From Mobula hypostoma (taxonomy: Eukaryota): a stretch of DNA of 64,000 nt. A program made the position numbers and the translations under genes. This document shows, in pieces, positions 3,961-57,479 of this stretch. The stretch spans positions 132,372,001-132,436,000 of the forward strand of contig NC_086097.1 in the NCBI RefSeq assembly GCF_963921235.1, in the 5' to 3' direction. How positions within the stretch are numbered: the first letter of the stretch is position 1; every line of letters starts with the position of its first letter. The notes under the pieces were generated by a model. It saw only the letters and a list, made by a program, of their open reading frames with translations, was not told the DNA's origin and made no database searches.

Positions 3961-4039
3961 GACGTTCAAATGAGGTGATTACAAAGTGTGTGGAGCACGA
4001 GTTAAGTCCTACATCCGTCCTTCCCATCTGTGGGCAAAG

Positions 4040-4699: not shown

Positions 4700-4797
4700 A
4701 TACACAAAAAGCTGGCGGAACTCCATGGGTCAGGCACACCTATAAGGGGAAATGGACAGTCGATGTTCTGAATCACGACCCTTTATCTGGACTGAAA
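4700..4797 (-). mobile_element. PLE terminal fragment with a degenerate hammerhead
   Basis: ACACAAAAAGCTGGCGGAACTC...CAGTCGATGTT...GACCCTTTATCTGGACTG matches the PLE end seen at 25352-25482. Confidence 0.7.
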
Positions 4798-15339: not shown

Positions 15340-15750
15340 TACTCTGGGCATTCTCTCTCCTCCCCACTCCCATTGGTCAGAAGATACAAACCCCCAAGAG
15401 CACCTACCACCAGGTTCAAGGACAAACAGGAGAAAAAAGTCTGCAGATGATGGAAATCCAAGCAGTATACACAAAATGCTGAAAGAACTCAGCAGGTCAG
15501 GCAACATCTATAGAAAAGTGTAAACAGTCGACATTTCGGGACGATACCCTTCTTCAGATTCAAGGACAGCTTCTATCGTGCTGTTATAAGACTATTGAAT
15601 GGTCCCCTATTAAGGTAGGATGGACTCTTGACTTCGCAATCTACTTTGCTTTGGAATTGCTCCTTACTGCTTGCCTGCACTGCATTCTCCCTGTAATTGT
15701 AACACTTCATTCTGCATTCTATTATTATTTTGCACTAATGTTATGAAATG
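15340..15750 (+). mobile_element. Rex/Babar-type 3' end, host of a PLE mini-insertion
   Basis: ACCACCAGGTTCAAGGACA|GCTTCTAT (TTRFKDSFY) is restored once 15425-15568 is removed. Confidence 0.75.
15425..15558 (-). mobile_element. 134-bp PLE terminal mini-insertion with hammerhead core and 10-bp TSD
   Basis: TSD TTCAAGGACA at 15415-15424 and 15559-15568. The minus strand reads CTGAAGA-A-GGGTATCGTCCC-GAAA-T-GTC-GACTG. Confidence 0.85.
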
Positions 15751-15764
15751 ATATTAACAAGATA

Positions 15765-17558
15765 AGGCTGTGGAAGGCTGCTTAACAAAATAAAATCCTA
15801 TAGTGTTACGGGAAAGATGCTGGTATGATAGAGGAATGGCTGACAGGCAGGAGGCGGTGAGTGGGAATAAAGGGGACCATTTCTGGTTGGCTGCCAGTGA
15901 CCAGTGGTGTTCCTCAGGGTCAGTATTGGGTCTGATGTTTTTCACATTGTTTGTCAATGATTTGGATAGTGGAATTGATGGCCTTATGGCAAAGTTTGCG
16001 GATGATAGGTAAATAGTTGGAATGTTAAGTAGTGCTGAGGAAGCAATGCGATTGCGGTAGGACTTAGACAAATTGGAAACATCGGTAAAAAGAATGGCAG
16101 ATGGAATACAGTGTTGGGAAATGATAATGTATTTTGGTAAAAGGAATAATGTAGACTATTATCTAAATGGGGAGAAGGTTCAAACATCAGAAGTGCAGAG
16201 GGACTTAGGAGTCCTCATGCAAGACATCCCAGAAGGTTAATTTACAAGTTGAGTCTGTGGTAAGGAAGGCAAATGCAATATTGGCATTTATTTAAAGGGG
16301 AAGAGAATAGAAAATCAAGAAGATAATGCTGAGCAACACACACAGGATTCTGGAGAAACTCAGTAGGTCAGGCAACATCTATGGAAAAGAGTACAGTCAA
16401 CGTTTCGGGCCAAAACCCTTCAGCAGAACTGGAGGAAAAAAGCTGAGGAGTAGATTTAAAAGGTTGGGGAGGGGAGAGAGAAACACAAGGTGATAGGTGA
16501 AACCTAAAGGAGGAGTGATGATGTACAGAGCTGGAAAGCTGATTGACGAAAGAGACAGAAGACCATGGAAGAAAGAAAAGGGGAGAGGAGAACCAGAGGG
16601 AGGAGATGGGCTGGTAAGGAGATAAGGTGAGAGAGGGAAAGGGCTGGGAAATGATTGGGGGGGGCGGGTTTGAGAAACCAATGTACACACCATCAGTTTG
16701 GAGGATACCCAAACAGAATATGAGGTTTTGTTCCTCCAACTTAAATGTGGCTTCATCACAGCAGTGGAGGAGGCGATGGATGGACATATCAGAATGGGAA
16801 TGGTAAGTGGGATTAAGATGCCTGGCCACTGGGAGATCTGCTTTTTCTGGTGAACAGAGCATAGGTGCTCAGTGAAGCGGTCTCGCAATCTACGTCAGGT
16901 GATCTGCGGATTTTCTCTTGTTTGGGATATGTTGAGCCTTTATAAGACACTAGTCAGGCTGTATTTTTTTTTAGATTATGGGAACACTCAATCCTCAGCA
17001 CTTGGAGTATTGTCCACAGTTTTGGGCCCCATATCTCAGAAAGGATGAGTTGTCATTGGAGAGAATCCAGAGAAGGTTTACCTCCAGATTCCTGGAATGA
17101 AAAGGTTAAGAAATGAGGAGCATTTGACAGCTTTGGGCCTGTACTCACTGGAATTTAGAAGAATGTGGGGTGATCTCATTGAAACCTATTGAATGTTGAA
17201 AGGACTGGATAAGATGGATGTGGAGAGGATGCTTCCTATGGTGGGGGTATCCAGAACTAGAAGGCACAGCCTCAAAATTGAAGGGTTACCATTTAGAACA
17301 GCGGTATGGAGGAACCTTTTTAGCCAGAGAGTAGTGAATCTGTGAAATGCTCTGCCACAGACTGCGGTGGAAGCCAAGTCCATGGGTATATTTAAAGTGG
17401 AAGTTGATAGTTCCCTGATTGGTCAGGGCATCAAAGGATATGGCAAGAAGGCAAGTGTATAGGATTGAGTGGGATCCAGGATCAGCCATGATGGAATTGC
17501 AGAGCAGACTCAATAGGTTGAATGACCCGACTCTACTCCTATGAATGATGGTCTTATG
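15765..17558 (+). mobile_element. Degraded CR1 RT and 3' end, interrupted by a PLE
   Basis: SVLGLMFFTLFVNDLDSGIDGLMAKFADD (ORF 15803-16012) and a CR1 3' UTR ending at ~17558. Confidence 0.9.
16335..16923 (-). mobile_element. PLE 3' fragment (GIY-YIG C-terminus, pyrimidine tract, mutated hammerhead) with a short inverted tail
   Basis: Reads RDRFTEHL..DLPVARHLN..HSHSDMSI..KLEEQNLIFCLG.LQ.DG. The hammerhead at 16394-16431 has CTGCTGA. Imperfect TSD GATAATGCTGAGC/GATATGTTGAGC. Confidence 0.9.
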
Positions 17559-19089: not shown

Positions 19090-19420
19090 AATATGCACTG
19101 CCAATTTGCACGCCAGTCCTGATGCAGGGTCTGGATCTGAAACATTGACAATTTGTTTCCTCCTGTGGATGCTGCTTGATCTGTTCCTGCAGCAGATTGC
19201 TTTTTGCTCCAAATTCCACCATCTATCTTTTTTGTGTGTCTCCTTGCACACAGCAAGCTCCTATAGACAATAGGATAATAATTTGATGATCTGTTTTGGT
19301 AACGTTACCATGGGCCAGGACACTGGGGAGAGCCCATTCGTTCTTCTTTATATCCACCTGAGGGGGCAGGTGGGACCTCAGCTTAACTCTCATCCAAAAG
19401 GCGGTTTCTCTGGCAGTACA
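19090..19420 (-). mobile_element. DeuSINE-like relic interrupted by a PLE mini-insertion (19112-19243, + strand, TSD TTGCAC)
   Basis: Deu-domain-like GGCCAGGACACTGGGGAGAG...ATCCACCTGAGGGGGCAG...CTCATCCAAAAG. TTGCAC occurs at 19106-19111 and 19244-19249. Confidence 0.7.
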
Positions 19421-21394
19421 TTTTTTTGTGCTCAGTGAATAACGGCCTCAGAGATTTAGTCTTGTGAAAAATGCACAGTCTTTTCTATGTTCAGGAATTA
19501 GAAAGCCGGTTCTGTCTTTGTAAAGCAAACAGAAAATAATGACAAGTCACAAATGTTACACTTTTGCAAAGGAAAGCAGTAAGCTTGGATTGATAAGTCA
19601 AGCTGGTTTAAAAAAAGGTCAGTTCAATAAAAAAAAGACTTGCCATAGATTTTAAAACTATGCAGAGTTTTGAATTATAATTGGGTCATTAATGTTTACT
19701 AAAATATTGATGAACCCTAATTACATACATGGATTGTGCATAGCAACAAGCTACTGTTATTTGGTCTGCCCTCCATTCAGATTCACCCATCTCTGGAGGA
19801 AATCATGGAACTTAGATCGAGGAAAACTGGTTGAAATCTCAATAATGAATTGGGTAAATGTGTGTTATTCAACCCCAGGTTTCCACAAATATAAATCATG
19901 CATTACATCAATTTCCACTGGGGTAGAATCCAAGGGGTCCACACAGTATTCTCATCCCTTTCATTTAACTTACTTACCTGAATTATAACCAAGTCTGAAG
20001 GTAGTTCACTCAAAAATAAATAACATGGTGATTCTCTTCACTTTTGTGGGGTTTCCTGGGGCAAAACTTCTGTGCACTATGAACAAACAATTTGATGCTT
20101 CAGTTTGAAAGTACTAGTTTATAATTAGTGCATATAGCACAGAGTTAATATCCTCTCTTTTCTTTCTTTGAAGTATTGTGTAGTAGACTCTGATATAGTG
20201 TCACACAGTTGCAGAGCACAGAAGTGGGCCTCCTGGTCCATCGCATCCATGGCAATCTTCTTTGTAAGCCTCTTGGGAAAGTATGAACATGATCGCCTTG
20301 CTAGCCTACTTATCTCTAATTCTGGCCACTGAGTGGATTTGTGAGCAGAAGAATCTGAGCAAACATATCACATTAAACAAAGTCTGCTTTCTTTGGATCT
20401 AAGATTAGAGAGGAATGCTGAAGAAGTCCTGACTACCCAAACACTTCACTTCACCAACAGTGATCCAGTTGTTAATATGTTTGGTCTACTACATTCCTTC
20501 GCATTTAAGGTGGGGATAAAAGCTAATTGCTGTAACAAAGGGCATTAGTAGCTTATGTAAAGAGAGATACTTAGAGAAACTATTCAATCAAAAGTGAATA
20601 AAGTATGATGTATTATTAAATCTAACAATGAACCATGGTAAATTCTGGTAAGCTGACTTCAGATGTAACAGATAAAAGTCTGGGTCAGGCAGCATTTGTG
20701 AAGGGATTTCATGTCAATGCTTTGCATTTGCCATGTGTCACAATGGTTGCTTGCACAGTGAAGTGGGGTTTTGTAGCAACAGAAATGGTATTCATAGCTA
20801 ACAACAAAAAACAATTAAAAATTGGAATATTATGCAAAAGCTCAAATTAAACCTTGTCTGTTTGTCATGTTTCTGCTTACGACAATTTGGCAGCAGATCC
20901 CAGCATGTCCAAGTTTGGAAACAAAATAGGAAGGAGAGGAGACACAAGGATCTGGAGATGCTGAAATCTGGAACAGCAACAATCGGATGGAGGAAAGCAA
21001 TTTACTGCATCTCTTCAGTTTGTGTGAGCATCTTGTTTCCACGAAGCATGCTCTCAGCAACATAGTATTATGCTTTAAAAATCCTGATTGAAGGACAAGT
21101 ATTGGTCAGAACTTCAAGGATACCTGAAGTAGGGTCTTGACCTAAAACATCAACCATCCCTTTGTTTCCACAGATGATGCCTGATCCACTGACTTCCTTC
21201 TACAGTTTGTTTGTGTGTCCCAGGCTACAGTAGCTACAGTCCCTTGTGTCTTCGAGGTACCTACCCTGCTCCTCTTCAGAACAATGCTCTAAGATCTTTC
21301 ATACCGTGCCGAAGGGGAGGTCTCAGTTTATAATCTTGACAAGGGGATAGTCCCCTTCATTCTGCTCAGTGTGAGAGAGTAACCCATGAATGGA

Positions 21395-21869: not shown

Positions 21870-22330
21870 TGTGCTATGACAGCCCTTGAAATTCAGCTTT
21901 GAGCTCTAAATTGCTCCAATTACTCCTCCGGCATACAGGACCCCTGTACGAGGGGCAGCCTTAGCGCCGTGGTGAAAGCCAATAATCTTCACTTAATCTG
22001 GTCCCAGAGCACCTTGTCACTACCCTTCACCATAGCTTTTCATAATCCCGAGCATATGGTCATGTTTTGATGGGCATGAAATTGCATCAGGCGAGGTCAT
22101 TTTTAATAACTGTCAATATTCCCTGAATAGAAGTCAACCTTATTGACATCTAAACTGAGAGCTTGGGGAGCTGTCAAGGAGTTGACAGACTCAGCTTGGG
22201 AAAGCTAATCCAGTGGGAGGCAGATTAATATTGATATTAGTAAATTGTTATTGATATAGATTTGAAGGGTATTGTGTAGCTGGATAATACTGTAACTCAA
22301 GTGCCACTGACAGCAAATTATGTTTTATTT
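21870..22330. promoter_or_regulatory. Candidate developmental enhancer or conserved non-coding element
   Basis: Non-repetitive sequence with five TGACAG/CTGTCA and five TAATCC/TAATCT motifs in ~450 bp. Conservation has not been tested. Confidence 0.5.
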
Positions 22331-23264
22331 TTCATGTGGGATTTTCCCTGGACCTTTTTCTTTCTCCCTCTTTCAGTAAAGGTTATTTTATAAAGCCAAG
22401 CAGACAACGAATCAGAAAATAAAACCTACTGAAGGACGCATTGTTTAACCCTTGCCTTTCTCTGGATATGTGGTCCTGAATTTTTGACTCAGCCACGGTA
22501 CTCTATTGAGTAAACTGGAATTTGAGGCTCATTCTAGTTGATCCTCAGATATTAAAATAATATCTTCAAAGACAAGACCTGGAATGTAACTGCCTATTTC
22601 CTGTTAACAAACTCGTGTTCATAAATCCAAACAGGAGCACTGCTGCAAGACTGCTGATTTTGTAAAGAGGAGATCATTTAGTACTCCTCTTATTATAATA
22701 GCACAATAATTGCTTCAAAGGGTACCCCCATCACCTCAATGAGACTCCCATTAATCCTGCCATTTTTCCCAGTAATGGGTTTGAACAAATGCCTATGTTA
22801 GAGGTTTCATAACCACTTCTGTTGATTTATTGGAAGGATATAATTATTGAGGTTTATGAGACAGAGATAACTAGATCATTGAGGTTATGGATTTTACATC
22901 TTAGATATATTATTCTATCGGAACAAATCACAGCCCTTATTCAGGGTCAGGACTTTGAGTCAATACCTCTGTGGAATTAAAGTCGTCAAAACAGGAGTAT
23001 TTTAAACAGGGTGTATGTGGACATTAGATAGATCAATCATTTTGCTGCTGGGCCAATTCACTGATCCTGTCTCAATGTTTCCCTTATTCACTGTTAAAAA
23101 TACAAAATATAATAAATTATTAATCATTATAAATGTTAATAATAAACCAGTTTATTTCTGAGACAGCTTGCAGAACCAATCAGAACGCATTGTTGCTTTT
23201 AAGAGTGATAGCTCACTCTGGAAGTTCCATCACCGCACCTTGTCGGAGCACCAGTCTGCAGTTA

Positions 23265-23525
23265 GTGATGGGAATGAGAGTGGAAGTGGGGACGTGAGTG
23301 GGAATGGAAGTGGGTATGGGTGCGGCAGTGACAGTGGGTGTGGGTGTGGAACTGGGACTGGGAGTGGCGGAGGGAGTGGGAGTGAGTGCAGGAAAGGAGC
23401 GAGGAATTGAATTCTGGGTGCAGTCGAAAGTGCAGCTGGAAGTAGGAAGAGCAATGGGCCTGGAAGTTAGGCCAGAGAGGGCACAGTGTGGGAGTGGGAA
23501 TGAGGATGGGGAAAGAGGTTGGGAC
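23265..23525 (+). repeat. Degenerate G-rich hexamer repeat, (GGGAGT/GGAAGT)n-like
   Basis: 6-nt periodicity (GGAAGT GGGGAC GTGAGT GGGAAT GGAAGT GGGTAT...). A complementary tract lies at 24153-24192. Confidence 0.8.
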
Positions 23526-25444
23526 TAAATATATCCAAATGCCAGACCATCTGCACAAACAGCTGTCCTGTCTTTGCAGCTGTGATTTACTGGACTGCTT
23601 ATTATACCCCCACACCCGTCCCCAAATGTCCTGAGAACACTACCACCAGCTGGCCCACCGCTCACTCTTCAGCCAGGCTGCTGCTAAGATTCATTTCCAC
23701 AGGGCTGGAGAGGGAATGAAGGTTTGAGGGTGTGTGGTTGTGTAGCTGGGGCAGAGAAGTAGTTGTGTGAAGGTGTGGAGACTGAAGATCAGTATACCAA
23801 GGGAAGGAGAGGCAGAGAGATGCCAAGGAGCAGACTGTATGAAACGGGGGGAAATATGGGGTTTAGGGGGTTGGGGGGAATTCTGAGTAAGGGTGAATTG
23901 AACTCGCATTAAAACTAATTTTAGGCTTTGACTGGAACTAAAACTGAGTCCATCATCAACTTTACCTGCTGTCACTCTCTCAGAGTGTTTTGTGGGGCAG
24001 GGCCTCTCTTTCTTCACATCTGGAGCAGGTGGGAACCACAGATGGCTGCTCCTGCCTTGAGAACACACACCACCAAGCTCAAGGATAGCTTCTATCCCAC
24101 TATTATTAGATTCTTGTATGGACCTCTGTGCGATAAATCTGAACTATTGGCGCCCACTCCCACTCCTACTCCTACATCCAATTCCACTCCCATATTTAAA
24201 ATATATACTTCATGACATATCTTTGAGTCTGTGTATTGGGAGGGGTGCAAGAAACCCAGTCCTTGTAAACACCCCAGTCTTTGAAACTTCCAGGTGCTGG
24301 ACTGTATCACCAGAAAAGGGGCATCAACAGGTATTTGTTTGGCTCAGATATCACATCATGATATAATGAGTTATTAGGGTTGGATCAGAAGATTCATGAT
24401 TGCCTACAAGGAAGGGTGCAAGGCCAACACTCCAAGTGATGTTTTAGGAAGTTTAAAATTACTGCAAGTAAGGAGGCGTAGAGGACAAAACCTGAATTAC
24501 AGAAGGATGCTGAACAACTGTGACAGGGCTTGAATGCTATTACCTCCTACAAAGTAAAACCAAGTGACACTTGTGACAGCAGGTTTCACTCCCAGATGAG
24601 CTCAGCGCCTTTCATGCTCGCTTTGAATGACAAAACATGGAGACATCTTCACAAATTTCCACAGTCCCTGACGACACTGTGATTTCAGTTTCTGAGGTCA
24701 ACATAAGCAGAGTATCCCTCAGGAGGGTGAACCCACAGAAAGTATCTGGCCCAGGCAGTCTCTACTTTCTTAGAGATTTTCTTTGTGAAGATTCAGCATG
24801 TCTTCTAAAATTTCGATCAACTTCTATAGATGCGTGGAGGAGATTGTCCTGACAAACTTTGTATCTCAACCTGGTATGGAAATACTACTGCGCTTGAACA
24901 GAACAGACAACAAAACGTAGCCCAGTCCATCATGGGTAAAGCCCTTTCCTCCATTGAGCACATGTACAAGGTATAGTGAAGCAGAAAAGCAGCATCGATC
25001 GTCGAAGACCTGCACCATCCAGGCCGCATTCTCTTCTTGCTGTTGCCATCAGCAAGGAGGTAAAGGAGCTTGGGTTCCACTCCATCCGGTTCAGGAACAG
25101 TCATTACCCCTCCGCCATTAGGCTGTTGAACCAAAGGGGATAACTTCATTTAATATCACTTACCCCTACACTGAACCAATTCCACAACCTATGCACTAAA
25201 TTTCAAGGACTCCACAACTCATGTTCTCAATATTTACTGCTCATTTATTTATTACTATTATTTTTTTTTCTTTTTTGTATTTGCACAGTTTGTTGTCTTT
25301 TGCACATTGTTTGCTTGCCTATCTTGTTGTGTCCAGGTTTTCATTGATCCTAAACACAAAATAATCTGCAGATGCTGAGGTCAAAGCAACACTCACAACA
25401 CGCTGGAGGAACTCAGCAGGTCGGGCAGCATCTGTGGGAAAGAT

Positions 25445-25482
25445 CGGTCGACGTTTCGGGCCGGAACTCTTCGTCAGGACTG
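25445..25482 (-). ncRNA. Minimal type I hammerhead ribozyme motif, core intact
   Basis: The minus strand reads CAGTC CTGACGA A GAGTTCCGGCCC GAAA C GTC GACCG, with one mismatch each in stems I and II. Confidence 0.75.
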
Positions 25483-26052
25483 AAGAGGGAGGGGGCAGAG
25501 GCCCTATAAAGAAGGTGGGCGGAGGGTGGGAAGGAGAAGGCTGGTAGGTTCCAGGTGAAAAACCAGTAAGGGGAAAGATAAAGGGGTGGGGGAGGGGAAG
25601 CAGGGAGGGGATAGGCAGGAAAGGTGAAGAAGGAATAGGGGAAAACACAATGGGTAGTAGAAGGAGGCAGAACCATGGGGAACCATAAGCAACACCTCAT
25701 ATACTGTCTAGGCCCCTTGACAGGCCTCATATACTGTCTAGGCCTCCAGCCCCTTGGTATGAGCATAGAATTTTCCAACTTCCAACAATTCCCTCCCCCT
25801 CCCTTCCCCTATCCCTATGTCACTCTGCCCCCTCCCCCAGCCGCCTATCACCTCCCTTATGGTTCCGCCTCCTTCTACTACCCATTGGGTTTTCCCCTAA
25901 TCTTTCTTCACTTTTCCTGCCTATCATCTCCCTGCTTCCCCTCCCCCACCCCTTTATCTTTCCCCTTACTGGTTTTTCACCTGGAACCTACCAGCCTTCT
26001 CCTTCCCACCCTTCCCCCACCTTCTTTATAGGGCCTCTGCCCCTTTCCTCTA

Positions 26053-26090
26053 CAGTCCTGACGAAGGGTTCTGGCCCGAAACGTCGACCA
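26053..26090 (+). ncRNA. Minimal type I hammerhead ribozyme motif, core intact
   Basis: CAGTC CTGACGA A GGGTT-CT-GGCCC GAAA C GTC^ GACCA has the CUGANGA and GAAA boxes, a GUC triplet, stem II and a palindromic ACGT stem III. Confidence 0.8.
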
Positions 26091-26769
26091 ATCTTTCCCA
26101 CGGATGCTGCCCGACCTGCTGAGTTCCTCCAGCGTGTTGTGAGTGTTTCACTGATCCTGTTGTGTTTCTTTGTATTTACCATGAATACCCACAAGAAAAT
26201 GAATCTCAGGGATGTATATGGTGACGTATATGCACTTTGATAATGAAATTAGATTGAACTTTGACAATTTGCCAACATTCATTGCTACATTCTGGACTAT
26301 AACAGCTGAGAGACTACAAGGAGCAGATTCTGTTGTGATTTGTACGTGTAGTGCAAATATTTGTAGGAATATGCAGGTTAGCAAGGCAGGAGACATGATT
26401 CAAAAAAACAACACAGGTATAATGGTCAATAATCCTACTTGAATTACATGATTCTGCATGTTCTATGACTTCAGTATGAAGAGCTTATTTTGCTGTAAAT
26501 TACATCCTTTTGTATTGATTATGTAATCCTCCCTCAGCAATGGAAAGCTACACACCATCTCTTGCACTACTATGGACTTGTCTGACTTGTTTTACAGTCT
26601 TTTATATCTCTTCATTGCCTTGTATAATTGATATGTAACAAATATATAATTTATATTCTTGTATGTTTTCTGTAACTATGTGTCTGTGACGATGTTGCAA
26701 GTGAGTTTTTCATTGTACTTGTATCTCACCATACTTGTGCATGTGATATTAAACTTGACCTATACATTA

Positions 26770-27316
26770 TCAAGTACCTCCTTTGTTGAGCATCTCCACG
26801 CATTCCACCACAAGAGGGACTTCCGAGTGGCCGAACATTTTAATTCCCATACCCATTCCACAGTGTTGATCCATGGCTTTCTCTTCTGCCAAGATGAGGC
26901 CACCCTCAAGGTGGAGGAGCAACACCTTATATTCTATCTGGGTACCCTCCAACCTGATGGTATGAATATCAATTTCTCCTTCGGATGAATATATTTCCCC
27001 TCCCCCTTCTTCTTTCACTTCTTCTCACCTGCCTGTTACCTCCCCCGGGTCCCCTCCTCCTTCTCTTTCTCCTATTGTCCACTCTCTTCTCCTATCAGGT
27101 TCTTTCTTCTCCAGCCCTTTACCTTTCCCACCCACTTCTCTTCACCTATCACCTTCTGGATAGCCTCTTTCCCCTCCCTCCACCTTTTTATTCTGGCATC
27201 TTTTCCCTTCCTTCTCAGTCCTGAAGAAGATTCTCAACCTGGAACATCGCCTGTTTATTCTTTTCCATAGATGCTGCTTGACCTGCTGAGTTGCTCCAGT
27301 GTTTTGTGTGTGTTAC
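26770..27316 (+). mobile_element. PLE 3' fragment
   Basis: Reads FVEHL..DFRVAEHFNS..EATLKVEEQHLIFYLGTLQPDGMNINFS, then a pyrimidine tract and a degenerate hammerhead at 27216-27253. Confidence 0.9.
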
Positions 27317-28946
27317 TTAGAAATTATGAGATGCTTTGATGTGACAGATCTAGAGGAGATTTCTTTCACTTACAAGAGGGCTGGGTCCAACTAATAAAAT
27401 AGTCATTCACAAATCTATTGAGGGATTCAGAAGAAACTCTTAATAATGAGTGTCATGGGATTGTGGTGCTCACAAATGTACAAGGAGATTTGCTGTGTAG
27501 AGAACAGCTACATTTTAGAGAAGAGTGATTAACATGCTGGAGAGATAAAATTGTTGATGGGGTGACATCCAAAGTGAAATAAAAGTTGATGCATGGTAAA
27601 AACATCAGTATAAAAATTCCCACTCATCCTCTCTTCTGCTCCCTTCCATAAGGCAGAAGATGCAAAAGCCAGAGAAGGCATTCCACCAAGCTCAAACACA
27701 GCTTTGATCCCTCTGATATCAAACTCTTGAACTATATACGATAAAGATGAACCACTTTAAGCACTTTGCTAAATGCATGTGATGCCTCTGCAAGTAAGTT
27801 TTTCATTGCACCTGTGCATACACGAACCTGTCCATGTTCAATAAACCCAGCTTCGATGTTGACTCTGGAAACGTGTTTTCCTTATGAATGTAGTGGATCT
27901 ACTGCTGTATATCTGTGAGGCAGATTGGGGAAAAGAAAGTCTTGAGTTTTACTACTTCTTCTAAAAGTTGGTCCACTGAACAGTTTCAGACTGATGATTG
28001 AATCTGCCCTTCACTGCACATAAAAGTGGACAAAGCTGTAGTGTACCTCAACAATAAAACAGGGGTTCTTGACCTCGGAGATTCTTCAGCAGCTGCAGAG
28101 ACTCCTTCATGCAGCAATTCAGTGGATCTGATTCAATGTGTTTCAATTAATACTTATGCAATAATACTCTGTTAAACAATGTAACAGCAATCCTTTTAGT
28201 ATTTTTAACTTGCCCGAGATCACAGGGAAAATATGAGGTTGCACATCAGAATTGAACCTGAGCCTCTGGTGCTGCGAAGCAGCCTCCTACTTGTCCTTTG
28301 GGCCAAGTATCCCAGGTTCCGTATGGCCAATCTGAAAGCAAAGGTGCAAGACAAGTACCACAGCAGCGTTGCGGTTAGCGTGATGTTATTACTGCTCAGG
28401 TTGTCGGAGTTCATAGTTCAATTAGTTCAGTCGCAGTTGAATAAGCAACCCCTCCCTTTCAGGGATTGCAATTTCCTAGAGACAATTTTTCCTGGTTTCA
28501 AAGATATGTTTAGAATTTCTCATTTAAACTTGGATCAAGAGAGTTAAGTTTTGGAACACATTTACACTGGTCATAATGAATTTTATTATGTTTTACAATT
28601 CGGTTACTTCAAATAAAGTTTCATAAAACAGAACATACATGAAAATAAATTTCAAATTATTATGAGATGAAAGTGATTGGGCACGATGACTTGTCCAGCT
28701 CCTCCAATATTGTCCATAAGGTCAATCTAGGCACTTGTATTTAGTTAAAGCAAAGGCATCATGGAGAAACAACAGCCGACCTCTAACAGGGTTATAACAT
28801 AAAACATTGAACAGGATCAGACCATTCAGACCATTCAGCCCACCATGTGTTTGTCAGCAATAATACCAATTTAAAATGCAAATTTGCCTGCACATGGTCT
28901 ATATCCCTCCACCCACAGCCTGTTCATATTGTATATCTGACTAAAT

Positions 28947-31900
28947 CCCTGACTCCCTGGCCTTTACCATTATCATGGAAAAGGATAGAATCAGAGAGGA
29001 CAGGAAAATTTTTACTTGGGGAAGGGCAAATTATGAGGCTATAAGGCTAGAACTTGCGGGTGTGAATTGGGATGATGTTTTTGCAGGGAAATGTACTATG
29101 GACATGTGGTCGATGTTTAGGGATCTCTTGCAGGACGTTAGGGCAAAATTTGTCCCAGTGAGGAAGATAAAGAATGGTAGGGTGAAGGAACCATGGGTGA
29201 CAAGTGAGGTGGAAAATCTAGTCAGGTGGAAGAAGGCAGCATACATGAGGTTCAGGGAGCAAGGATCAAATGGGTCTATTGAGGAATATAGGGTAGCAAG
29301 AAAGAAGCTTAAGAAGGGGCTGAGGAGAGCAAGAAGGGGGCATGAGAAGGCCTTGGCAAGAAGGGTAATGGAAAATCCCAAGGCATTCTTCAATTATGTG
29401 AAGAATAAAACAATGACAGGAGTGAAGATAGGACCAAATAGAGATAAAGATGGGAAGATGTGCCTGGAGGCTGTGGAAGTGAACGAGGTCCTCAATGAAT
29501 ACTTCTCTTCGGTATTCACCAATGAGAGGGAACTTGATGATGGTGAGGACAATACGAGTGAGGTTAATGTTCTGGAGCAAGTTGATATTAAGGGAGAGGA
29601 GGTACTGGAGTTGTTAAAATACATTAGGATGGATAAGTCCCCGGGGCCTGACGGAATATTCCCAAGACTGCTCCACGAGGCGAGGAAAGAGATTGCTGAG
29701 CCTCTGGCTAGGATCTTTATGTCCTCCTTGTCCACAGGAATGGTACTGGAGGATTGGAGAGAGGCGAATGTTGTCCCTTTGTTCAAAAGAGGTAGTAGGG
29801 ATAGTCCGGGTAATTATAGACCAGTGAGCCTTACATCTGTTGTGGGAAAGCTGTTGGAAAATATTCTTAGAGATAGGATCTATGGGCATTTAGAGAATCA
29901 TGGTCTGATCAGGGACAGTCAGCATGGCTTTGTGAAGGGCAGATCATGTCTAACAAGCTTGATAGAGTTCTTTGAGGAGGTGACCAGCCATATAGATGAG
30001 GGTAGTGCAGTGGATGTGATCTACATGGATTTTAGTAAGGCATTTGACAAGGTTCCACATGGTAGGCTTATTTAAAAAGTCAGAAGGTATGGGATCCAGG
30101 GAAATTTGGCCAGGTGGATTCAGAATTGGCTTGCCTGCAGGAAGCAGAGGGTCGTGGTGGAGGGAGTACATTTGGACTGGAGGGTTGTGACTAGCGGTGT
30201 CCCACAAGGATTGGTTCTGGGACCTCTAGAAACCATAGAAACCATAGAAACTACAGCACAGAAACAGGCCTTTTGGTCCTTCTTGGCTGTCCCGAACCAT
30301 TTTCTGCCTAGTCCCACTGACCTGCACACGGACCATATCCCTCCATACACCTCCCATCCATGTATCTGTCCAATTTATTCTTAAATGTTAAAAAAGAACC
30401 CACATTTACCACCTCATCTGGCAGCTCATTCCATACTCCCACCACTCTCTGTGTGAAGAAGCCCCCCTTAATGTTCCCTTTAAACCTTTCCCCCCTCACC
30501 CTTAACCCGTGTCCTCTGGTTTTTTTCTCCCCTTCCCTCAGTGGAAAAAGCCTGCTTGCATTCACTCTATCTATACCCATCATAATTTTATATACCTCTA
30601 TCAAATCACCCCTCATTCTTCTACGCTCCAGGGAATAAAGTCCTGACCTATTCAACCTTTCTCTGTAACTGAGTTTCTCAAGTCCCGGCAACATCCTTGT
30701 AAACCTTCTCTGCACTCTTTCAACCTTATTTATATCCTTCTGTAATTTGGTGACCAAAACTGAACACAATACTCCAGATTCGGCCTCACCAATGCCTTAT
30801 ACAACCTCATCATAATATTCCAGCTCTTATACTCAATACTTTGATTAATAAAGGCCAATGTACTAAAAGCTCTCTTTACGACCCTATCTACTTGTGACGC
30901 CACTTTTAGGGAATTTTGTATCTGTATTCCCAGATCCCTCTGTTCTACTGCACTCCTCAGTGCCTTACCATTAACCCTGTATGTTCTACATTGGTTTGTG
31001 CCAGTTTTCAGCCTATTTTTCCAGCTGGTCCAAGTCCCTTTGCAGGCTCTGAAAACCTTCCTCACTGTCTACTACACCTCCAATCTTTGTATCATCAGCA
31101 AATTTGCTGATCCAATTTACCACATTATCATCCAGATCATTGATATAGATGACAAATAACAATGGACCCAGCACTGATCCCTGTGGCACACCACTAGTCA
31201 CAGGCCTCCACTCAGAGAAGCAATTCTCTACCACGACTCTTTGACTTCTTCCATTGAGCCAATGTCTAATCCAATTTACCACCTCTCCATGTATACCTAG
31301 CGACTGAATTTTCCTAACTAACCTCCCATGCAGGACTTTTCGTGATTTTTATTAACAACCTGGATGTGGAGGTAGAAGGGTGGGTTGGCAAGTTTGAAGA
31401 CGACACAAAGGTTGGTGGGGTTGTGGATAGTGTAGAGGATTGTCAAAGATTGCAGAGAGACATTGATAAGATGCAGAAGTGGGCTGAGAAGTGGCAGATG
31501 GAGTTCAACCCGGAGAAGTGTGAGGTGGTAAACTTTGGAAGGACAAATTCCAAGGCAGAGTACAAAGTAAATGGCAGGATACTTGGAAGTGTGGAGGAGC
31601 AGAGGGATCTGGGGGTACATGTCCATAGATCCCTGAAAGTTGCCTCACAGGTTGATAGGGTAGTTAAGAAAGCTTATGGAGTGTTAGTTTTCATAAGTCG
31701 TGGGATAGAGTTTAAGAGTCGCGGCGTAATGATGCAGCTCTATAAAACTCTGGTTAGGCCACACTTGGAGTACTGTGTCCAGTTCTGGTCGCCTCACTAT
31801 AGGAAGGATGTGGAAGCATTGGAAAGGGTACAGGGGAGATTTACCAGTATGCTGCCTGGTTTAGAGAGTATGCATTATGATCAGAGATTAAGGGAGCTAG

Positions 31901-32829: not shown

Positions 32830-33040
32830 GGAGACACAGGAGACTGCTGACGTTGAAATCCGGAGCCACACACAATCTGCTGGAAGAACTCAGCAGGTTG
32901 AGCAGCATCTGTGAGAGGGAACTAATTGTAAAGGTTGTAGGTTCAAACCCTGCATCAGGACTTGACCTAAAACATCAACAATTCTCACAGAAGCTGCTCA
33001 ACCCTTTGAATTTCTCCAGCACATTGTCTGTTGCTCTTAA
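32830..33040. mobile_element. Fold-back mini-element made of two inverted PLE termini
   Basis: A minus-strand terminus (32830-32962) is joined at the decayed hammerhead to a plus-strand terminus (32960-33040). Confidence 0.7.
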
Positions 33041-33913
33041 TGTAAATCTTGATGGGCTTGTCTAAAAGACACCACAGCGCTCCCTCAGTATAACACTGAA
33101 ATGTCAAGCTGTTAGATGTTACATGTGCTCACTGGGGTACTCATTTGAGATGCAGAAAATTACAAAAGATTCAAGAGCAGTAATGCAAAACGCAAAGTTT
33201 CCATCCTGAACACAGTTGTCCCAGTCATAAGAAAAGGTATTTGTACTCTAGACGGAAACTCCAAAACTCTGGGACACAGCTATATAAGGAAAAGACCTGT
33301 ACGAGTTACAGCCAAAGATAATCTCAAATATTCTGCCTTGTTCCATGCTTGGAAGCTCCAGTAGTGGTTTAACCTCACGTTCAAAAATCAGACCTGGAAA
33401 ATTTGAATCCACAAACTGAAATAGAAATGAAATTACAGAAGGGGAGTCACTCAGTCTGCAATAATGTTAGCATCCTGCCAGTTCTATTGTGGGCTAGTTA
33501 TTCTGGTTCAATTCTCCTTTTGAGGCCATTTCTGCAAAACCTGTATTTTGAATTGTTGCTAATTACAGGCACAATCATTAGCCCATCAGCAAGAAATTCC
33601 TTTGTTCTCTACAAGGATGGCAAACAATGAGCTAAATCTTTTGCAGGCAAAATTTGATTGACTATGAGCGCAAAGATTAAACGTAACTGATTACCTCCTT
33701 ATTCTACTGCTTACTTTCTATTTAGAAATGCCGACCAATTTCAGGGGACAGTTAAGATATAATCACACAGGACCTGGAATTATATTAAGGCTACTTCCTT
33801 CATTGCAAAGGTCCAGATGAAATTTAGCAACAATCTGATCGTTATGCAATTGCATAAGAAATAGAAGCATTATTTGCATCTGTTTAGTTGGAGCATTATT
33901 TATCCGCATCTAG

Positions 33914-34829
33914 AACAATTCTCCGTAACTTTAGATATCTCCAGTGGGATCTCACCACCAAGCACATCTTTTCCTCCCCCCCGGCCCATCCACTTTCTGC
34001 TTTCTGCAGGGATCACTCCTACATGACTTCCTTGAGCATTCATCCCTCCCTACTGACCTCGCTCCAGGTACTTATTCCTGCAAGCGGAACAAGTGCTACA
34101 CCTGCCCCAGCAATTCCTCCTTCACGACCATTCAGAGCCCCAAGCAGTCCTTCCAGATGAGGCAACACTGCACTGTGAGTCCGTTGGGGTCATATACTGT
34201 GTCCGGTGCTCCTGGTGTGGCCTCGTGTATATTGGTGAGACCTGACATGGATTGAGAGACCGCTTTGCTGAGCGCCTGCCAGAAAAAGCAGGATCTCCCA
34301 GTGGCCACACAGTTCAATTCTGCTTCCCATTTCCATTCCAACATGTCAGTCCATGGCCTCCTCTACTGCTGCAATGAGGCCACACTCAGGTTGGAGGAGC
34401 TACATCTTATATTCCGTCTGAGTAGCTTCCAACCTGATGGCAGGAAGATCGATTTCTTGAACTTTTGGTAATTGCTCCCCTTTGTTCACCATTTTCCATT
34501 CCCATTTTCTTCTCTCAGCTTATCTCCTTACCTGCCCATCATCTCTGCCTTCCCTTTCTTCCATGGTCTTCTGTCCGCTCCTATCAGATTCCCCCTTCTT
34601 TATCTTTTTCACCAATTGACTTCCAAGATCTTCACTCCTCCCTCTCTTCTGGTTTCACCTATCACCTACCACTTTGTACTTCTTCCTCCCCTCCCTCAAT
34701 TTCTTACTCTGACCTCATCTTTTTTCTCCAGTCCTGATGAAGAGTCGTGGCCGAAACATCAACTGTTTACTCTTTTCCATAGGTGCTGCCAGGCCTGCTG
34801 AGTTCCTCCAGCTTTTTGTGTGTGTTGCA
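33914..34829 (+). mobile_element. PLE fragment: Cys-rich linker, GIY-YIG endonuclease and terminal region
   Basis: Reads GTYSCKRNKCYTCP, VIYCVRCSWCGLVYIGET (~34189-34242) and DLPVATQFNS..LRLEELHLIFRLSSFQPDG, with frameshifts. Confidence 0.93.
34729..34765 (+). ncRNA. Hammerhead ribozyme motif, core boxes intact but stems decayed
   Basis: CAGTC CTGATGA A GAGTCGTGGCC GAAA C ATC AACTG. Confidence 0.6.
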
Positions 34830-37229: not shown

Positions 37230-37492
37230 CAGGCTCCATCTGCTACTGTCGCTACAGTCATTGCTATTCCCATGCCTGGTGGGACCCACTCATCATCATT
37301 CACCCTCCTCAGTCCACTAACCACATCGGACTCCTGTCTCATTCCTCCCCTTTCCCTCTTTATATCAGTTATCTCTCCTCTCCATACTCAGTCCTGATGC
37401 AGGGATTTAACACCGACAAACATTGACAATTGCTTTAGCCCTGCAGATGTTGTTTGACCAACTGAGTTCCTCCAACAGATTGTTTTTTGTTC
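37230..37492 (+). mobile_element. PLE terminal region, degraded
   Basis: Pyrimidine tract, then CAGTCCTGATGCAGGG...AAACATTGAC and CTGAGTTCCTCCAACAGA. Confidence 0.6.
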
Positions 37493-44924: not shown

Positions 44925-45436
44925 GGACTGTACTCACTGGAGTTTATAAGAATGAAGATAGATCTTATTAAAAACTCATTGAATATTGAAGGGCCTAGAT
45001 AAGAGTGGGAGTGGAGAGGATGCTTCCAATAGCGGGGGAGTCTAAGGCCAAAGGGCACAGTCTCTGAACACAAGGGCTGCTCTTTAGAGCAGAGATGAGG
45101 AGGAATTTCTTTAGTGATAAATCTGTGGAATTCATTGCCACAAACAGCTGTGAATGCCTAGTCAATGGGTATATTTAAAGCAAAGGTTGATAGGTTCTTG
45201 ATTAGTAAGGGCGTCACAGAGAAGGCTAGAATAATAAATCACAAACAATAGAAAGTCTGCAGCTGCTTGAAATCCAAAGCAACACGCATAAAATGCTGAA
45301 GGATCTCAGCAGGTCAGGCAGCATCGACGGAAAAGAGTAAAGAGTCGATGTTTCCGGCCAGGACCCTTCTTCAAGACATATCGAGTATGACTGAATGGCC
45401 GACCAGACTCAATTCTGCTCTTATGTCTTATGGTCT
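44925..45436 (+). mobile_element. CR1 3' fragment with a PLE mini-insertion (45243-45377, minus strand)
   Basis: The CR1 3' UTR is split at ATAATAAATCA. The insert reads (minus) GTC TTGAAGA A GGGTCCTGGCCG GAAA C ATC GACTC. Confidence 0.8.
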
Positions 45437-45545
45437 AACCGTTCATTATTTTCAACAAAACAACAGTGATGAATAAAACAATAAGAAACATTTACAATGG
45501 CACTGTGATAATTGATTCAGGATTGACTTGTATTGCTTCTTTTGT

Positions 45546-45632
45546 AACACACATAAAAGTTGCTGGTGAACGCAGCAGGCCAGGCAGCATCTCTAGGAAG
45601 AGGTGCAGTCGACGTTTCAGGCCGAGACCCTT
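45546..45632 (-). mobile_element. PLE terminal mini-fragment ending in hammerhead stem II
   Basis: AACACACATAAAAGTTGCTGG...CAGTCGACGTTTCAGGCCGAGACCCTT. Confidence 0.75.
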
Positions 45633-46321
45633 TTGTGTTTCTTTTGTTGATATTCAAATGTATTATTAAGTACACATGTAACAAATATGCATAAGAGCTT
45701 TAATTTGGAATTTGTTATTGGGTTATTATTGTCACATGTACAGAGATACAGTGAAAAGCTTTAGTTTGTGTGCTGTCAGACAGTTGCTGCCTGACCTGCT
45801 GAGTGCATCTAGCATTTTGTGTTTCTGCATTTTAGATTTCCAAATCTGCAGTTTTGTGTGCTTTTCATTTAACATTTAAATCAATAACCTTTATTCACAA
45901 CTTTTCTATTACTTTCCTAGAACATGCCCAGCTGCCTTTTGAAAGTTCCTGTGGAATCTGATTTTACTTCCCTCAATATCTTTCTCTAAGTTGCAGGAAA
46001 TATAGTCAATAATTCAAGCCAACAACAAGTTACTATATTAAATAAAGTTGACAGTGTCAAGGTAGCAGCTCTTAGCCTGGGTTTTTCCACTGAGACAGGC
46101 AGACCCTTTGGAAAAATATTGTTGCAACAGCACAGTTAGTCACATCAAGCAGTCCTTCAAGTGAGTAAATGATTGATCACAGCTAGTATTAGAGATGATG
46201 TATATGATAAAATGCTATTGACTCTGGATTCTCACCACCAATAAAAACAAGACAGCAGGCATATGGCAACACTACAACCTACTGATTTCCTCTAAGTTTT
46301 GCACACATAATCCTGACTTGG

Positions 46322-47561: not shown

Positions 47562-47895
47562 AACACACACAAAATGCTGAAAGAACTCAGCAGGCCAGGC
47601 AGCTTCAATGGAGAGGAATAAACTGTCAATGTTTCAGGCCAAGACCTTCTCTTATGGTTCCAATTAGTGAGCTGCAGACTGGGTCCTATTGGAAGTTAGT
47701 TAAGGACTGTGCTGATTCGCCCTTCTGGGATCCATGTTTTTGAAATGGTGAAGGATCTCACCCTGATACATCGACTGCTTATTCTTCTCCATAGATGCTA
47801 CTCGACCTGCTGAGTTTCTCCAGATACTGTCTAACTTCTTGAGATCTCCTGTGTGTTACTCTGGATTTCCAGGGTCTGCAGAATCTCTTGAGTTA
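47562..47895. mobile_element. Fold-back pair of PLE termini around a ~95-bp spacer
   Basis: Minus-strand terminus at 47562-47650 and plus-strand terminus at 47746-47895, both cut at the hammerhead. Confidence 0.7.
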
Positions 47896-49234: not shown

Positions 49235-49660
49235 AGATACAGCATGATAACAGGTCCTTTTGGGCCAATAAGCCCGCACTGCCAAATTACACCTATGAGA
49301 CCAAATAACCTGTAACCTGCACACACAACATGCTGGAGGAACTCAGCAGGTCGGGCAGCATCCGTGGAAACGAACAGTCAACACTTCGGGTTGAGACTCT
49401 TCATCAGGACTGAAGAGGGAGGGGGCAGGGGTCCTATAAAGAAGGTCGGGGGGGGGTGGGAAGGAGAAGGCAGATAGGTGCCAGGTGAAAGGGGATAAAC
49501 CTATAACCTGAACATTTTTGGAATGTGGGAGGAAGTTAGAACACCTGAAGGAAACCCACATTGTCACAGGGAGAATATACAAACTCCTTACAGATAGTGG
49601 CGGAAGTGAACTTGCATTGATGGCACTATTATAGAATTAATTTAACCGCTCACGATCATG
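49235..49660 (-). mobile_element. V-SINE interrupted by a PLE terminal insertion (49320-49497) with a 13-bp TSD
   Basis: TSD AACCTGTAACCTG (49307-49319) / AACCTATAACCTG (49498-49510). The hammerhead at 49375-49412 has GAAG in place of GAAA. Confidence 0.85.
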
Positions 49661-50414: not shown

Positions 50415-50690
50415 GAAGGGAACTGAAGAAGTTTACTAAGATTCTGCCTGGATTATAGGATATGAGCTGTAAGAAGATGCTGGACAAACTTGGGTTATTT
50501 TCTCTAGAGTGTCAAAGGCTGAGAGTAGACCTGATAGATGATTAAGCAACACACACAAATGCTAGAGAAACTCAGCAGGCCAGGCAACATCTGTGGAAAA
50601 GAGTAAACAGTCGATGTTTTGGGCAGAGACCTTTCATCAGGACTGAAAGAAGTTTATAAGATTATGAGATTATAGAAAGGGAAGAAGTAG
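50415..50690 (+). mobile_element. CR1 fragment with a PLE mini-insertion (~50544-50648, minus strand)
   Basis: GACCTGATAGA|AGTTTATAAG is split. The insert's hammerhead (50608-50645) reads CAGTC CTGATGA A AGGTCTCTGCCC AAAA C ATC GACTG. Confidence 0.8.
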
Positions 50691-55575: not shown

Positions 55576-57479
55576 ACGAAACTAAAGATCCGCCTAGGAG
55601 TATATCCTGGTTATAAGCTTGAACTTGAAACTTGGAACTTGGCAATTGAACATATGGCAGCCCAGTATTGAGAATACTTTTAAATGTGAGGATCCACAAG
55701 TGTCCAGGAATGCACAGAGATCTCGTAGGACTACAGGATTGGAAAAGGGATGACTGCAGAACACTGAAAACACCGAAAAGAATTTTAAAATTAGGGTACT
55801 GTTGATCCGAAAGCCAGTGTAGGTCATTGGCAGGTTTTCAACCCAAAACATCACCAATCCCTTTCCTCCTAGGGATGCAGCTCATCCCATTAAATTTCTC
55901 CAGCAGGTAGTGTGTTGCTCCAGATTCCAGCATCTAGTCTCCTGTGTCTCAATTAGGTCATTAGGGTAATGGGAGAACAAGACTTGGGTGTAAGTTAAAA
56001 CAGTACTCAGTGACACACATTGGTGCTGCTGACCCATCTATCTCCGCATGGTCTAGGCTACAGATAGGGTGTGCATCTTATTTGATTTAACATGCTGTCC
56101 TCAACAAGATAAATATTCTCATTTCACAATTGCAATAACCCGTGGACTGAGCTAGTTTAAAGGTATTGGTTCCTTTCCGGAGTCGCAATGAGACCAGCTT
56201 GAATTGCTGTAAAGGAGACAATTTAACCTTTAAAAGTAGTTAATTAGGTTTAAAAATAAACAGAAATCTGACTACATCATCAACTGAGCAAATTTTACCA
56301 AGTGCTCTTTCATCCCAAGTCTGAGGGGGCAATATTGCCATCTAGTGACTAAGAGAGACAGGTTCTATTTTTACCGCAAGGGCTCCTAAATGCAGCCACT
56401 GATGTGTGCCATCATGTCCCACGTAACTCAGCACTGTAGGATGGTTACTGCAGGAACTGAGGACATTTGGCGCATTGCCCCTCTGTCAACCCTACCGAAA
56501 AAGAATATTGTTCATTCAACTTCCCTAAAATCTTCTCAGAGCACTGCAAATTCTTTCCTTTTAGGTACCTCCCTATCCAGCTCCCTGGAAAAAGGTGCTA
56601 TTGAATCGGCCTCTATTATTCACCCTGGTGATGCATTCTAGACCTCATCACTTAATGAATTGAATCATTTATTTTCACCTTGCTTTTCATTCTTTTGTCA
56701 AGTGTATTCATTATCTTTCTTGACCCCACCACCATCAAAAACAACTTCCCTCCATCTGCTTTATGTATATACTTTATGATTTATATACCAGTATCACAAA
56801 GTATGTATACTTTGACAATAAGTGTACTTTGAACTTTGAACCTGGACATCCTGTTGCAAGCTTTATTCTATGGAGACCAGCAGAAGCTTCTTCAGTCTAC
56901 TCACATAACTAAAACTCTTCATCCATGGAATCACTCTAATAAATCTCTTCTACACCCTTACTTGTTAACTTCTCTTCTTTCCTGAAGCAACATACAAATC
57001 ATTGGATCCAAAATGTTGACTGTCCACTTCCCTCCATAGATGCTGCCTGATCTCTTGAGTTTCTTCAGCGCTTTTTGTGTTGCTTCAGATTCTGGTATCT
57101 ACTGTTTTTTTGTGTCAACATTTCTTGTCAAAAGTCTGGTTCTCAGAACTGGACACACCTTGTTATTACTTTAGAACATAATCCAAAATGTACCCTCTTC
57201 ACACAGACACCTTCACCATACAACTTGTTGTAAAAGTTATACAGAGAGCTATTGACAATTGTATTATATCCAGGACCGTATCCATCACAAATGTGAAACA
57301 TGCTGCATATCTACATATTATATCTGTGTGAGATATTATATGGGTGTGAGATATAGAACAATACTACTTCAAGATTTGTAACTCAGCAGTTTTCCATCAC
57401 ATCACCTTCTGTTGCTTGTACTCTTGCAAAATTAGTAGCTTAGCTTTGTGATATGCATAATTGTCTTGTTAGCAGCTCC

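What the first reader, a model, noticed from the sequence alone, without database searches (positions are those of the whole stretch)
26053..26090. Hammerhead ribozyme family carried by PLE ends, with an intact exemplar
Seen: CAGTC-CTGACGA-A-GGGTTCTGGCCC-GAAA-C-GTC-GACCA has both catalytic boxes, a GUC cleavage triplet, stem II, stem I pairing and only a palindromic ACGT for stem III. Related copies lie at 15525, 16394, 25445, 27216, 34729, 45342, 49375 and 50608, with more decayed ones elsewhere. Established: PLEs encode minimal type I hammerheads that typically cleave as dimers through the palindromic stem III, and an extra A between A9 and G10.1 is tolerated in a natural viroid hammerhead (CChMVd plus strand). 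Inference: more than ten ribozyme-derived motifs in 64 kb implies a very large genomic load, and a few could still cut host transcripts.
Basis: partly seen in the sequence, partly recalled or inferred. Interest (0 to 1): 0.72.

Follow-up and report, generated by a model that had tools for sequence, protein, structure and literature searches.

The report
Penelope hammerhead relics, one locked shut
The motif is a known kind of tiny, predicted self-cutting RNA left at the ends of broken Penelope jumping genes in what is likely a ray genome; only one of about twenty copies here keeps every required part, and it sits in a mirror-image repeat predicted to block it, so it likely does not cut host RNA.

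Summary
Observation confirmed. 26053-26090 is a minimal type I hammerhead: the only full-descriptor match in 64 kb, with 0 in 600 shuffles. It belongs to about 22 repeat copies, four of them downstream of GIY-YIG endonuclease remnants (Neptune-like Penelope elements, likely a ray). This is the min-HHR class of Cervera and De la Pena 2014. Cutting of host transcripts is not supported. The exemplar is one arm of a 296-nt head-to-head inverted insertion (13-bp target duplication). Read-through in either direction makes the antisense arm first, and the predicted hammerhead fold probability is 0. No intact same-strand dimer partner exists in the window. Two extras: 12 of 20 copies (10 firm) begin at the ribozyme's front edge and none at the cut site. 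An older subfamily carries C at core position 9 (0 of 5 copies have A, against 11 of 12 others), which I did not find in print. The scan reported this family and the edge pile-up before, on other DNA of this genome. Interest 0.3.

The parts
26053..26090 (+). Exemplar minimal type I hammerhead; predicted cut between 26085 and 26086; helix I 3 bp, helix II 4 bp, loop-less ACGU helix III
25352..26145 (.). Whole PLE insertion unit between target-site duplications: tail, inverted terminal repeat, endonuclease end, terminal repeat with the exemplar
25339..25351 (+). Left target-site duplication (12 of 13 identical to the right copy)
26146..26158 (+). Right target-site duplication
25352..25387 (-). 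About 36-nt tail extension present on the left arm only
   Evidence: alignment; resembles the loose-end consensus behind 34828; tail described in PMC8557442
25381..25676 (-). Left arm of the 296-nt inverted repeat (94% complementary); antisense to the exemplar on the + strand
25859..26154 (+). Right arm of the inverted repeat, holding the exemplar
25445..25482 (-). Sister hammerhead: core and palindrome intact, mismatch at pair 10.2-11.2
25687..25785 (+). Last ~24 codons of the PLE endonuclease, with a 30-nt internal duplication
33888..34465 (+). Frameshifted PLE remnant: Cys-X4-Cys-X2-Cys linker and GIY-YIG endonuclease, upstream of the 34729 copy
   Evidence: homologue P0004 has a GIY-YIG hit below the Pfam cut-off (E 0.002)
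34729..34765 (+). Decayed copy: core intact, helices I, II and palindrome broken
16653..16894 (-). Endonuclease remnant upstream of the 16394 copy
16394..16431 (-). Decayed copy, A6>C
26782..26985 (+). Endonuclease remnant upstream of the 27216 copy
27216..27253 (+). Decayed copy, A13>G; nearest same-strand neighbour of the exemplar
15525..15562 (-). Decayed copy: core intact, 5' end inside helix I, palindrome decayed
45342..45379 (-). Decayed copy, C3>U
49375..49412 (-). Decayed copy of the exemplar's subfamily, A15.1>G
50608..50645 (-). Decayed copy, G12>A
19114..19151 (+). Second (B-tail) subfamily copy with C at core position 9 (19125); a contig spans this locus in three other organisms
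32926..32963 (-). B-tail copy with C at position 9; one half of a fold-back pair with 32944-33031 (+)
37389..37429 (+). B-tail copy with C at position 9
21119..21156 (+). B-tail copy with T at position 9
55820..55857 (+). B-tail copy that starts at about G8; C at position 9
56977..57022 (+). Decayed copy with another tail type and C at position 9
4757..4794 (-). Decayed copy, several core changes
45606..45643 (-). Copy truncated at the start of helix II; head-to-head with tail-only copy 45780-45822 (+)
47623..47660 (-). Copy truncated at about G8; head-to-head with 47740-47777 (+)

Best explanation
The motif is a minimal type I hammerhead in the terminal repeat of 5'-truncated Penelope-like retrotransposon copies, which in an active element likely cuts only as a protein-assisted dimer, while the genomic copies here, the exemplar included, are predicted to be inert relics. 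Shown: the motif anatomy; its position about 270-340 nt downstream of the end of an endonuclease remnant in four copies; the insertion unit with target duplication, one-sided tail and inverted arm; core damage in most copies, concentrated at three CpGs. Inferred from published work: helix III has no loop, so two motifs must pair through the ACGU palindrome, and the element's protein is probably needed. Predicted here: alone, the 38-mer folds into a rod in which G5-G8 pair with the cleavage-site letters. In place, any read-through transcript makes the antisense arm first and buries the motif in a roughly 290-bp duplex. Inferred: insertions were copied from uncut RNA, because copies begin at the ribozyme's front edge and not at the cut.
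For: Unique full-descriptor match, 0 in 600 shuffles. Fits the published consensus CUGANGAH / G10.1-C11.1 / palindrome, including 3-bp helix I. Endonuclease remnants with a Cys linker upstream; the ten homologues looked up are all from rays, skates or a shark. 296-nt inverted repeat, 13-bp duplication, and flanks that match one other repeat copy in order, as in PMC8557442 and PMC3846280. Helix I and II pair probability is 0.0000 in the whole unit on both strands, and at most 0.09 once 13-20 nt of flank are included. Modelled double hammerhead -13.5 kcal/mol against -27.5 for the best dimer. Core mismatches 10 of 96 against tail 37 of 336, p=1. CpGs intact in 5, 3 and 8 of 13 copies. 12 of 20 copies (10 firm) start in a ~25-nt zone at the front edge, p about 1e-5 to 2e-4, none at the cut. 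Published: monomer inactive and dimers weak; the anole PLE hammerhead needs protein, is not needed for insertion in vitro, and shows no RNA-seq ends at its site.
Against: No cleavage was measured. Nearest-neighbour energies ignore the tertiary core and protein binding. No reverse-transcriptase part or full-length element lies in the window, so the clade rests on the endonuclease and linker only, and Pfam did not score the window fragments themselves. A transcript starting between the two arms would escape the antisense arm. The conservation test has only 12 copies and mixes subfamilies. Expression and strand at this locus are unknown.
Confidence: 0.87

Rival explanations
1. The exemplar or a few copies still cut host transcripts, as monomers or as dimers with other transcripts.
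For: All core letters, helix II and the palindrome are intact and the isolated 38-mer forms helices I and II. The family is very abundant, so trans partners exist in principle.
Against: Antisense arm made first and predicted fold probability 0. The other three copies with an intact ACGU palindrome (16394, 25445, 45606) are all on the opposite strand. No excess conservation. Monomers inactive and protein needed in published tests.
Confidence: 0.05
2. In this family the hammerhead region mainly does a non-catalytic job: it marks where the copied RNA begins or where copying stops (a start site, a splice acceptor inside helix I, or a fold that stalls reverse transcriptase), and cutting is dispensable.
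For: 5' ends pile up at the front edge, not at the cut; loose ends in three public runs show the same for the B subfamily. A pyrimidine tract ending in CAG runs into helix I in the long copies, as for the intron end in D. virilis Penelope. A subfamily multiplied with C at position 9. Catalytic mutants still insert in vitro.
Against: The main subfamilies keep every catalytic letter in their majority sequence, and all 56 published families keep A9, which argues for selection on catalysis in active lineages. No splice junction or start site was shown. This rival is compatible with the best explanation for the genomic copies and differs only on the active element.
Confidence: 0.3
3. The copies are a separate non-autonomous retrozyme or SINE-like element, not truncated PLE ends.
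For: Many copies are only about 100-150 nt. Non-LTR retrozymes derive from PLE terminal repeats and occur in one sampled chondrichthyan.
Against: Four copies are continuous with endonuclease remnants. 5' ends are ragged, and no head-to-tail array of hammerhead units is present; such arrays define active retrozymes in that preprint.
Confidence: 0.06
4. Chance resemblance to a hammerhead.
For: No Rfam hit; folding z-score -0.66; no covariation above shuffles.
Against: 0 descriptor matches in 600 shuffled windows; expected position in a PLE; near-identical architecture in published PLE families such as Acropora Neptune and Crassostrea.
Confidence: 0.01

Closest known systems
Minimal type I hammerheads (min-HHR) of metazoan PLE terminal repeats; Cervera and De la Pena 2014, PMC4209133 (read main text parts 1-2 of 4, supplement parts 1-2 of 3)
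   Same: CUGANGA plus extra base, G10.1-C11.1, loop-less palindromic helix III, short helix I, mostly single truncated copies, opposite-strand pairs 100-700 bp apart, very high copy number.
   Different: No cartilaginous fish among the 56 aligned families. All 56 have A9 (their descriptor required it), whereas the B subfamily here has C.
Endonuclease-positive PLE insertions, Neptune type; Craig et al. 2021 PMC8557442 and Arkhipova et al. 2013 PMC3846280 (passages read)
   Same: 5' truncation, adjacent inverted copy, 30-40 bp tail at one end, short target duplication, Cys-rich linker before a C-terminal GIY-YIG domain.
   Different: No reverse transcriptase in the window, so Neptune and Nematis cannot be told apart here.
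Anole Poseidon (PAc) hammerhead; Frangieh et al. 2024, PMC11167929 (read parts 1-2 of 4)
   Same: Vertebrate PLE hammerhead at the terminal repeat; insertions not shaped by the cut site.
   Different: Different clade. Its protein-assisted cleavage was measured; here nothing was assayed.
Non-LTR retrozymes; bioRxiv 10.64898/2026.07.22.740005 (read part 1 of 5 and passages; supplements closed)
   Same: PLE-derived type I hammerhead repeats in vertebrates.
   Different: Defined by tandem arrays with a ribozyme in each unit; none in this window.
CChMVd plus-strand hammerhead (review PMC3705267, passages read)
   Same: Extra A between A9 and G10.1.
   Different: Viroid ribozyme with loop-loop contacts; the review says the extra A moderately lowers the rate.

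Membership tests
min-HHR (type I hammerhead) | Conserved core C3-A9, G12-A15.1, U16.1, H17 | tested here: met
   Exemplar has all; 4 of the 9 named copies do
min-HHR (type I hammerhead) | Helix II closed by G10.1-C11.1 with an unpaired base before it | tested here: met
min-HHR (type I hammerhead) | Palindromic 15.1-16.1 stretch in place of helix III | tested here: met
   ACGU in the exemplar; CpG intact in 3 of 13 copies
min-HHR (type I hammerhead) | Helix I of 2-6 bp | tested here: met
   3 bp in the exemplar, 5 bp in the majority; published range
min-HHR (type I hammerhead) | Compensatory covariation in the helices | tested here: not met
   16 copies: covariation score 0.216 against 0.202 shuffled, 134 of 500 shuffles as high. 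Decayed genomic copies give little power; the one-sided U-A/U-G exchange at 10.4-11.4 (7 and 7) fits pairing.
min-HHR (type I hammerhead) | Site-specific self-cleavage (dimer or protein-assisted) | not testable with these tools
   Only contigs were available, which cannot show RNA ends
Rfam hammerhead families | Score at the gathering threshold | tested here: not met
Endonuclease-positive PLE | C-terminal GIY-YIG endonuclease upstream of the terminal repeat | tested here: met
   Pfam GIY-YIG only on homologues and below cut-off
Endonuclease-positive PLE | Inverted 5'-truncated copy, one-sided tail, target duplication | tested here: met
Endonuclease-positive PLE | Telomerase-like reverse transcriptase in the same ORF | not testable with these tools
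   No such part in the window and no genome held
Neptune clade | CX2-5CxxC linker between RT and EN | tested here: met
   Cys-X4-Cys-X2-Cys in the 34729 element; Nematis also has a linker motif
Neptune clade | RT phylogeny | not testable with these tools
   no RT sequence available
Non-LTR retrozyme | Tandem units each with a complete type I hammerhead | tested here: not met
   copies are dispersed or head-to-head

The most novel reading that the evidence does not exclude
An old, multi-copy subfamily of this PLE multiplied with C in place of A at hammerhead position 9 (CUGAUGC-A-G). Either it is an undescribed core register, with the spare base sitting between G8 and A9, or it is a natural crippled ribozyme in a successful lineage. 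The second reading would be evolutionary evidence that Penelope elements do not need self-cleavage and keep the motif as the landmark at which their copied RNA begins.
Probability: 0.4. Interest if true: 0.55.

Novelty: new member of a known kind. Interest (0 to 1): 0.3.

Why it matters
The finding as given extends a known ribozyme class to a ray-like genome and needs no new biology. Two points go further. First, the usual head-to-head PLE insertion always puts the antisense of its ribozyme upstream on either strand, and three CpGs sit on G12, the dimer palindrome and the cut site. Together these give a simple predicted reason why very many such motifs can be tolerated by a host. Second, the role of PLE hammerheads is still open in the papers read. 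A matched pair of natural subfamilies (A9 against C9) and the front-edge pile-up of 5' ends make it directly testable.

Tried and rejected
A first pattern search used a spacer one base too long and is uninformative. Rfam gave no hammerhead. No genome is held, so nothing genome-wide was counted here. Two word-indexed protein searches with endonuclease fragments found nothing; the full HMMER search found 47 relatives. Family patterns found 0 matches in metagenome contigs and viral contigs. No RNA holder was listed for 22000-31000; this is no evidence on expression. The laid contigs cannot show RNA ends or strand, and no empty-site joint for the exemplar's insertion was among the joints shown (4804 were hidden). 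Pfam scans of 23 long frames and of 115 of 125 non-repeat frames found CR1-type RT remnants and only weak sub-threshold hits otherwise, so no host gene was identified (of the ten frames not, seven were, two, and 33935-34252 is among those two); the window may still be intronic. The pairwise register misplaces the last column and hides indels, so searches were used for those positions. I rejected calling the exemplar defective for its 3-bp helix I, because published families have the same. Paper searches for the C9 variant and for shark or ray PLE hammerheads found no description; Figure 5 and supplements of PMC3088659 and the supplements of the 2026 preprint were not seen and may bear on both claims.

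Full report
Observation. The 38 letters are at 26053-26090 as written. Read as a type I hammerhead they give helix I 5' strand 26053-57, the C3-A9 box 26058-64, an extra A, a 4-bp helix II with a 4-nt loop, the GAAA box, the loop-less palindrome ACGU and C17 at 26085. A descriptor demanding both boxes, 3 bp of helix I, 4 bp of helix II and a Watson-Crick palindrome matches only this copy in the window and never in 600 shuffled windows. Rfam does not detect it. Helix I is 3 bp followed by two mismatches, whereas most copies could form 5 bp. Many published families also have 3 bp, one with the same GUC/GAC, so the word intact is fair.

Family. A profile built from the nine named copies finds 21 copies at E<=3e-5 among 22 hits; 10 shuffled windows gave none below E 0.1. 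A second profile adds one tail-only copy. Twenty copies hold at least part of the core. Of the eight named relatives, five have a core change (16394 A6>C, 27216 A13>G, 45342 C3>U, 49375 A15.1>G, 50608 G12>A) and three keep the core but have a broken helix or palindrome. Three CpG dinucleotides fall on C11.1-G12, C15.2-G16.2 and C17-G1.1; they are intact in 5, 3 and 8 of 13 gap-free copies. Methyl-C decay as the cause is inference.

Link to PLEs. Upstream of the copies at 16394, 27216 and 34729 lie broken endonuclease frames. The 34729 remnant has a Cys-X4-Cys-X2-Cys linker and the first GIY-YIG motif, and matches P0004, which has a sub-threshold GIY-YIG hit. The exemplar has the last ~24 endonuclease codons upstream. 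The ten relatives looked up are from Hypanus, Hemitrygon, Narcine, Rhinoraja, Leucoraja and Rhincodon, so the host is likely a ray. The linker fits the Neptune type, but no reverse transcriptase is present to place the clade.

The exemplar's insertion. It is the right arm of a 296-nt inverted repeat, 94% complementary, with 182 nt between the arms. The unit is bounded by a 13-bp duplication with one mismatch, and its two flanks match one other repeat copy in order. About 36 nt of tail are on the left arm only. This is the standard head-to-head PLE insertion (passages). Folding 25340-26200 gives helix I and II probabilities of 0.0000 on both strands, with 37 of 38 exemplar letters paired to the other arm. 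Without the other arm, adding 13-20 nt of flank drops helix II to 0.09 and helix I to 0.02. The bare 38-mer folds into a rod in which G5-G8 pair with the cleavage-site letters. A modelled double hammerhead scores -13.5 kcal/mol against -27.5 for the best dimer; this model ignores tertiary contacts. The other three copies with an intact palindrome are all on the opposite strand.

Selection. At eight non-CpG core positions 10 of 96 letters differ from the majority, against 37 of 336 in a 28-position tail control, p=1 (12 copies, leaving out three with indels in the motif, one with a tail deletion and four truncated ones). Pair counts on 16 copies show no covariation above shuffles (134 of 500 as high), though the true register beats all slid registers (73% paired against 19-44%). 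So the genomic copies look neutral. This does not test the active masters, whose majority sequence keeps the whole core.

Published function. In PMC4209133 (main text parts 1-2 of 4) a single min-HHR did not cleave, and dimers and trimers cleaved weakly. In PMC11167929 (parts 1-2 of 4) the anole PLE hammerhead cleaved only with the element's protein, catalytic mutants still inserted in vitro, and no RNA-seq reads ended at the site. The extra A of CChMVd is confirmed by a review passage. Together with the geometry, host-transcript cutting by this copy is unlikely (about 5%). I found no host gene in the window and have no expression data.

5' ends. Earlier notes of this scan reported a pile-up of 5' ends at the ribozyme's front edge elsewhere in this genome, and I tested it here. 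Six copies extend at least 100 nt upstream by homology, one more probably does, and one extends about 26 nt. Twelve of 20 (10 firm; 50608 and 56977 uncertain) start within about 25 nt at the front edge, and none at the cut (ends called by eye). Against the next 100 nt upstream, p is 1.4e-5 for 12 events or 1.7e-4 for 10, with approximate exposures. In three public runs, contigs laid on the 19114 copy show either a shared upstream sequence or unrelated flanks starting at 19115-19117. The simplest reading is that uncut RNA was copied. In the long copies a pyrimidine tract ending in CAG runs into helix I, like the intron end reported in D. virilis; whether it is a splice acceptor here is untested.

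A core variant. Copies with a distinct tail (classes assigned by eye) have C at position 9 in four cases and T in one, never A; 11 of 12 other readable copies have A (Fisher p=0.001; three copies truncated or folded back over this position and two tail-only copies left out; the C in 55820 is near its 5' end). On the 19114 copy, 448, 386 and 414 contigs were laid in three runs with summed depth of about 3600-4300 against 5.5-7.5 for the one contig spanning the locus, and no A was listed at 19125 at the 5% threshold. Seeding on this copy favours contigs with C, so this shows a multi-copy C form with its own flanking consensus, not its share of the family. The spanning contigs differ at 7-10 of 76 letters, so the insertion likely predates the split of those organisms. 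All 56 families in the published alignment have A9, but that search required it. The natural core variants named in section 8 of PMC3088659 do not include position 9 (Figure 5 not seen). Three text searches found no description. That A9 pairs with G12 and matters for rate is recalled, not read here; the mutagenesis passages read do not single out A9. Other agents noted impaired-core PLE families in other genomes, unchecked.

Verdict. The claim of residual host cutting is not supported. Interest 0.3; the C9 subfamily is the part worth an assay. PMC12192606 and PMC6155905 were seen as passages only and add nothing specific.

Noticed in passing
window 20954-21244, 32838-33061, 45519-45854, 47535-47865: Four more head-to-head pairs of family copies besides the exemplar's; in 32926/32944 the two arms overlap at a palindromic junction inside the ribozyme. 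Target duplications not checked.
   Followed up: partly
window 26040-26057, 27203-27220, 34716-34733, 49408-49425: A pyrimidine tract ending in CAG runs into helix I in every long copy, like a 3' splice acceptor; splicing there would replace the outer part of helix I.
   Followed up: no
window 25381-26154: The arms differ at 19 of 296 positions; a read-through transcript would form a long duplex, a likely substrate for RNA editing or small-RNA processing.
   Followed up: no
proteins P0001, P0009, P0029, P0031: Annotated ray and skate proteins (ATP synthase subunit C3-like, neuromedin-U receptor 1, RECQ5, NYAP1-like) carry this PLE endonuclease C-terminus as part of their sequence: exonisation or annotation artefact.
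   Followed up: no
window 25200-25351 and 26159-26290: The exemplar's unit landed inside another dispersed repeat, a second copy of which lies at about 59755-59988.
   Followed up: partly
window 639-3352, 28945-32190, 43135-44454: Several truncated CR1-type LINE reverse-transcriptase remnants; one public run has a contig joining 28940 to 32262, an empty site for the middle block.
   Followed up: no
window 25688-25742: A 30-nt tandem duplication inside the endonuclease end, close to the inversion junction.
   Followed up: no
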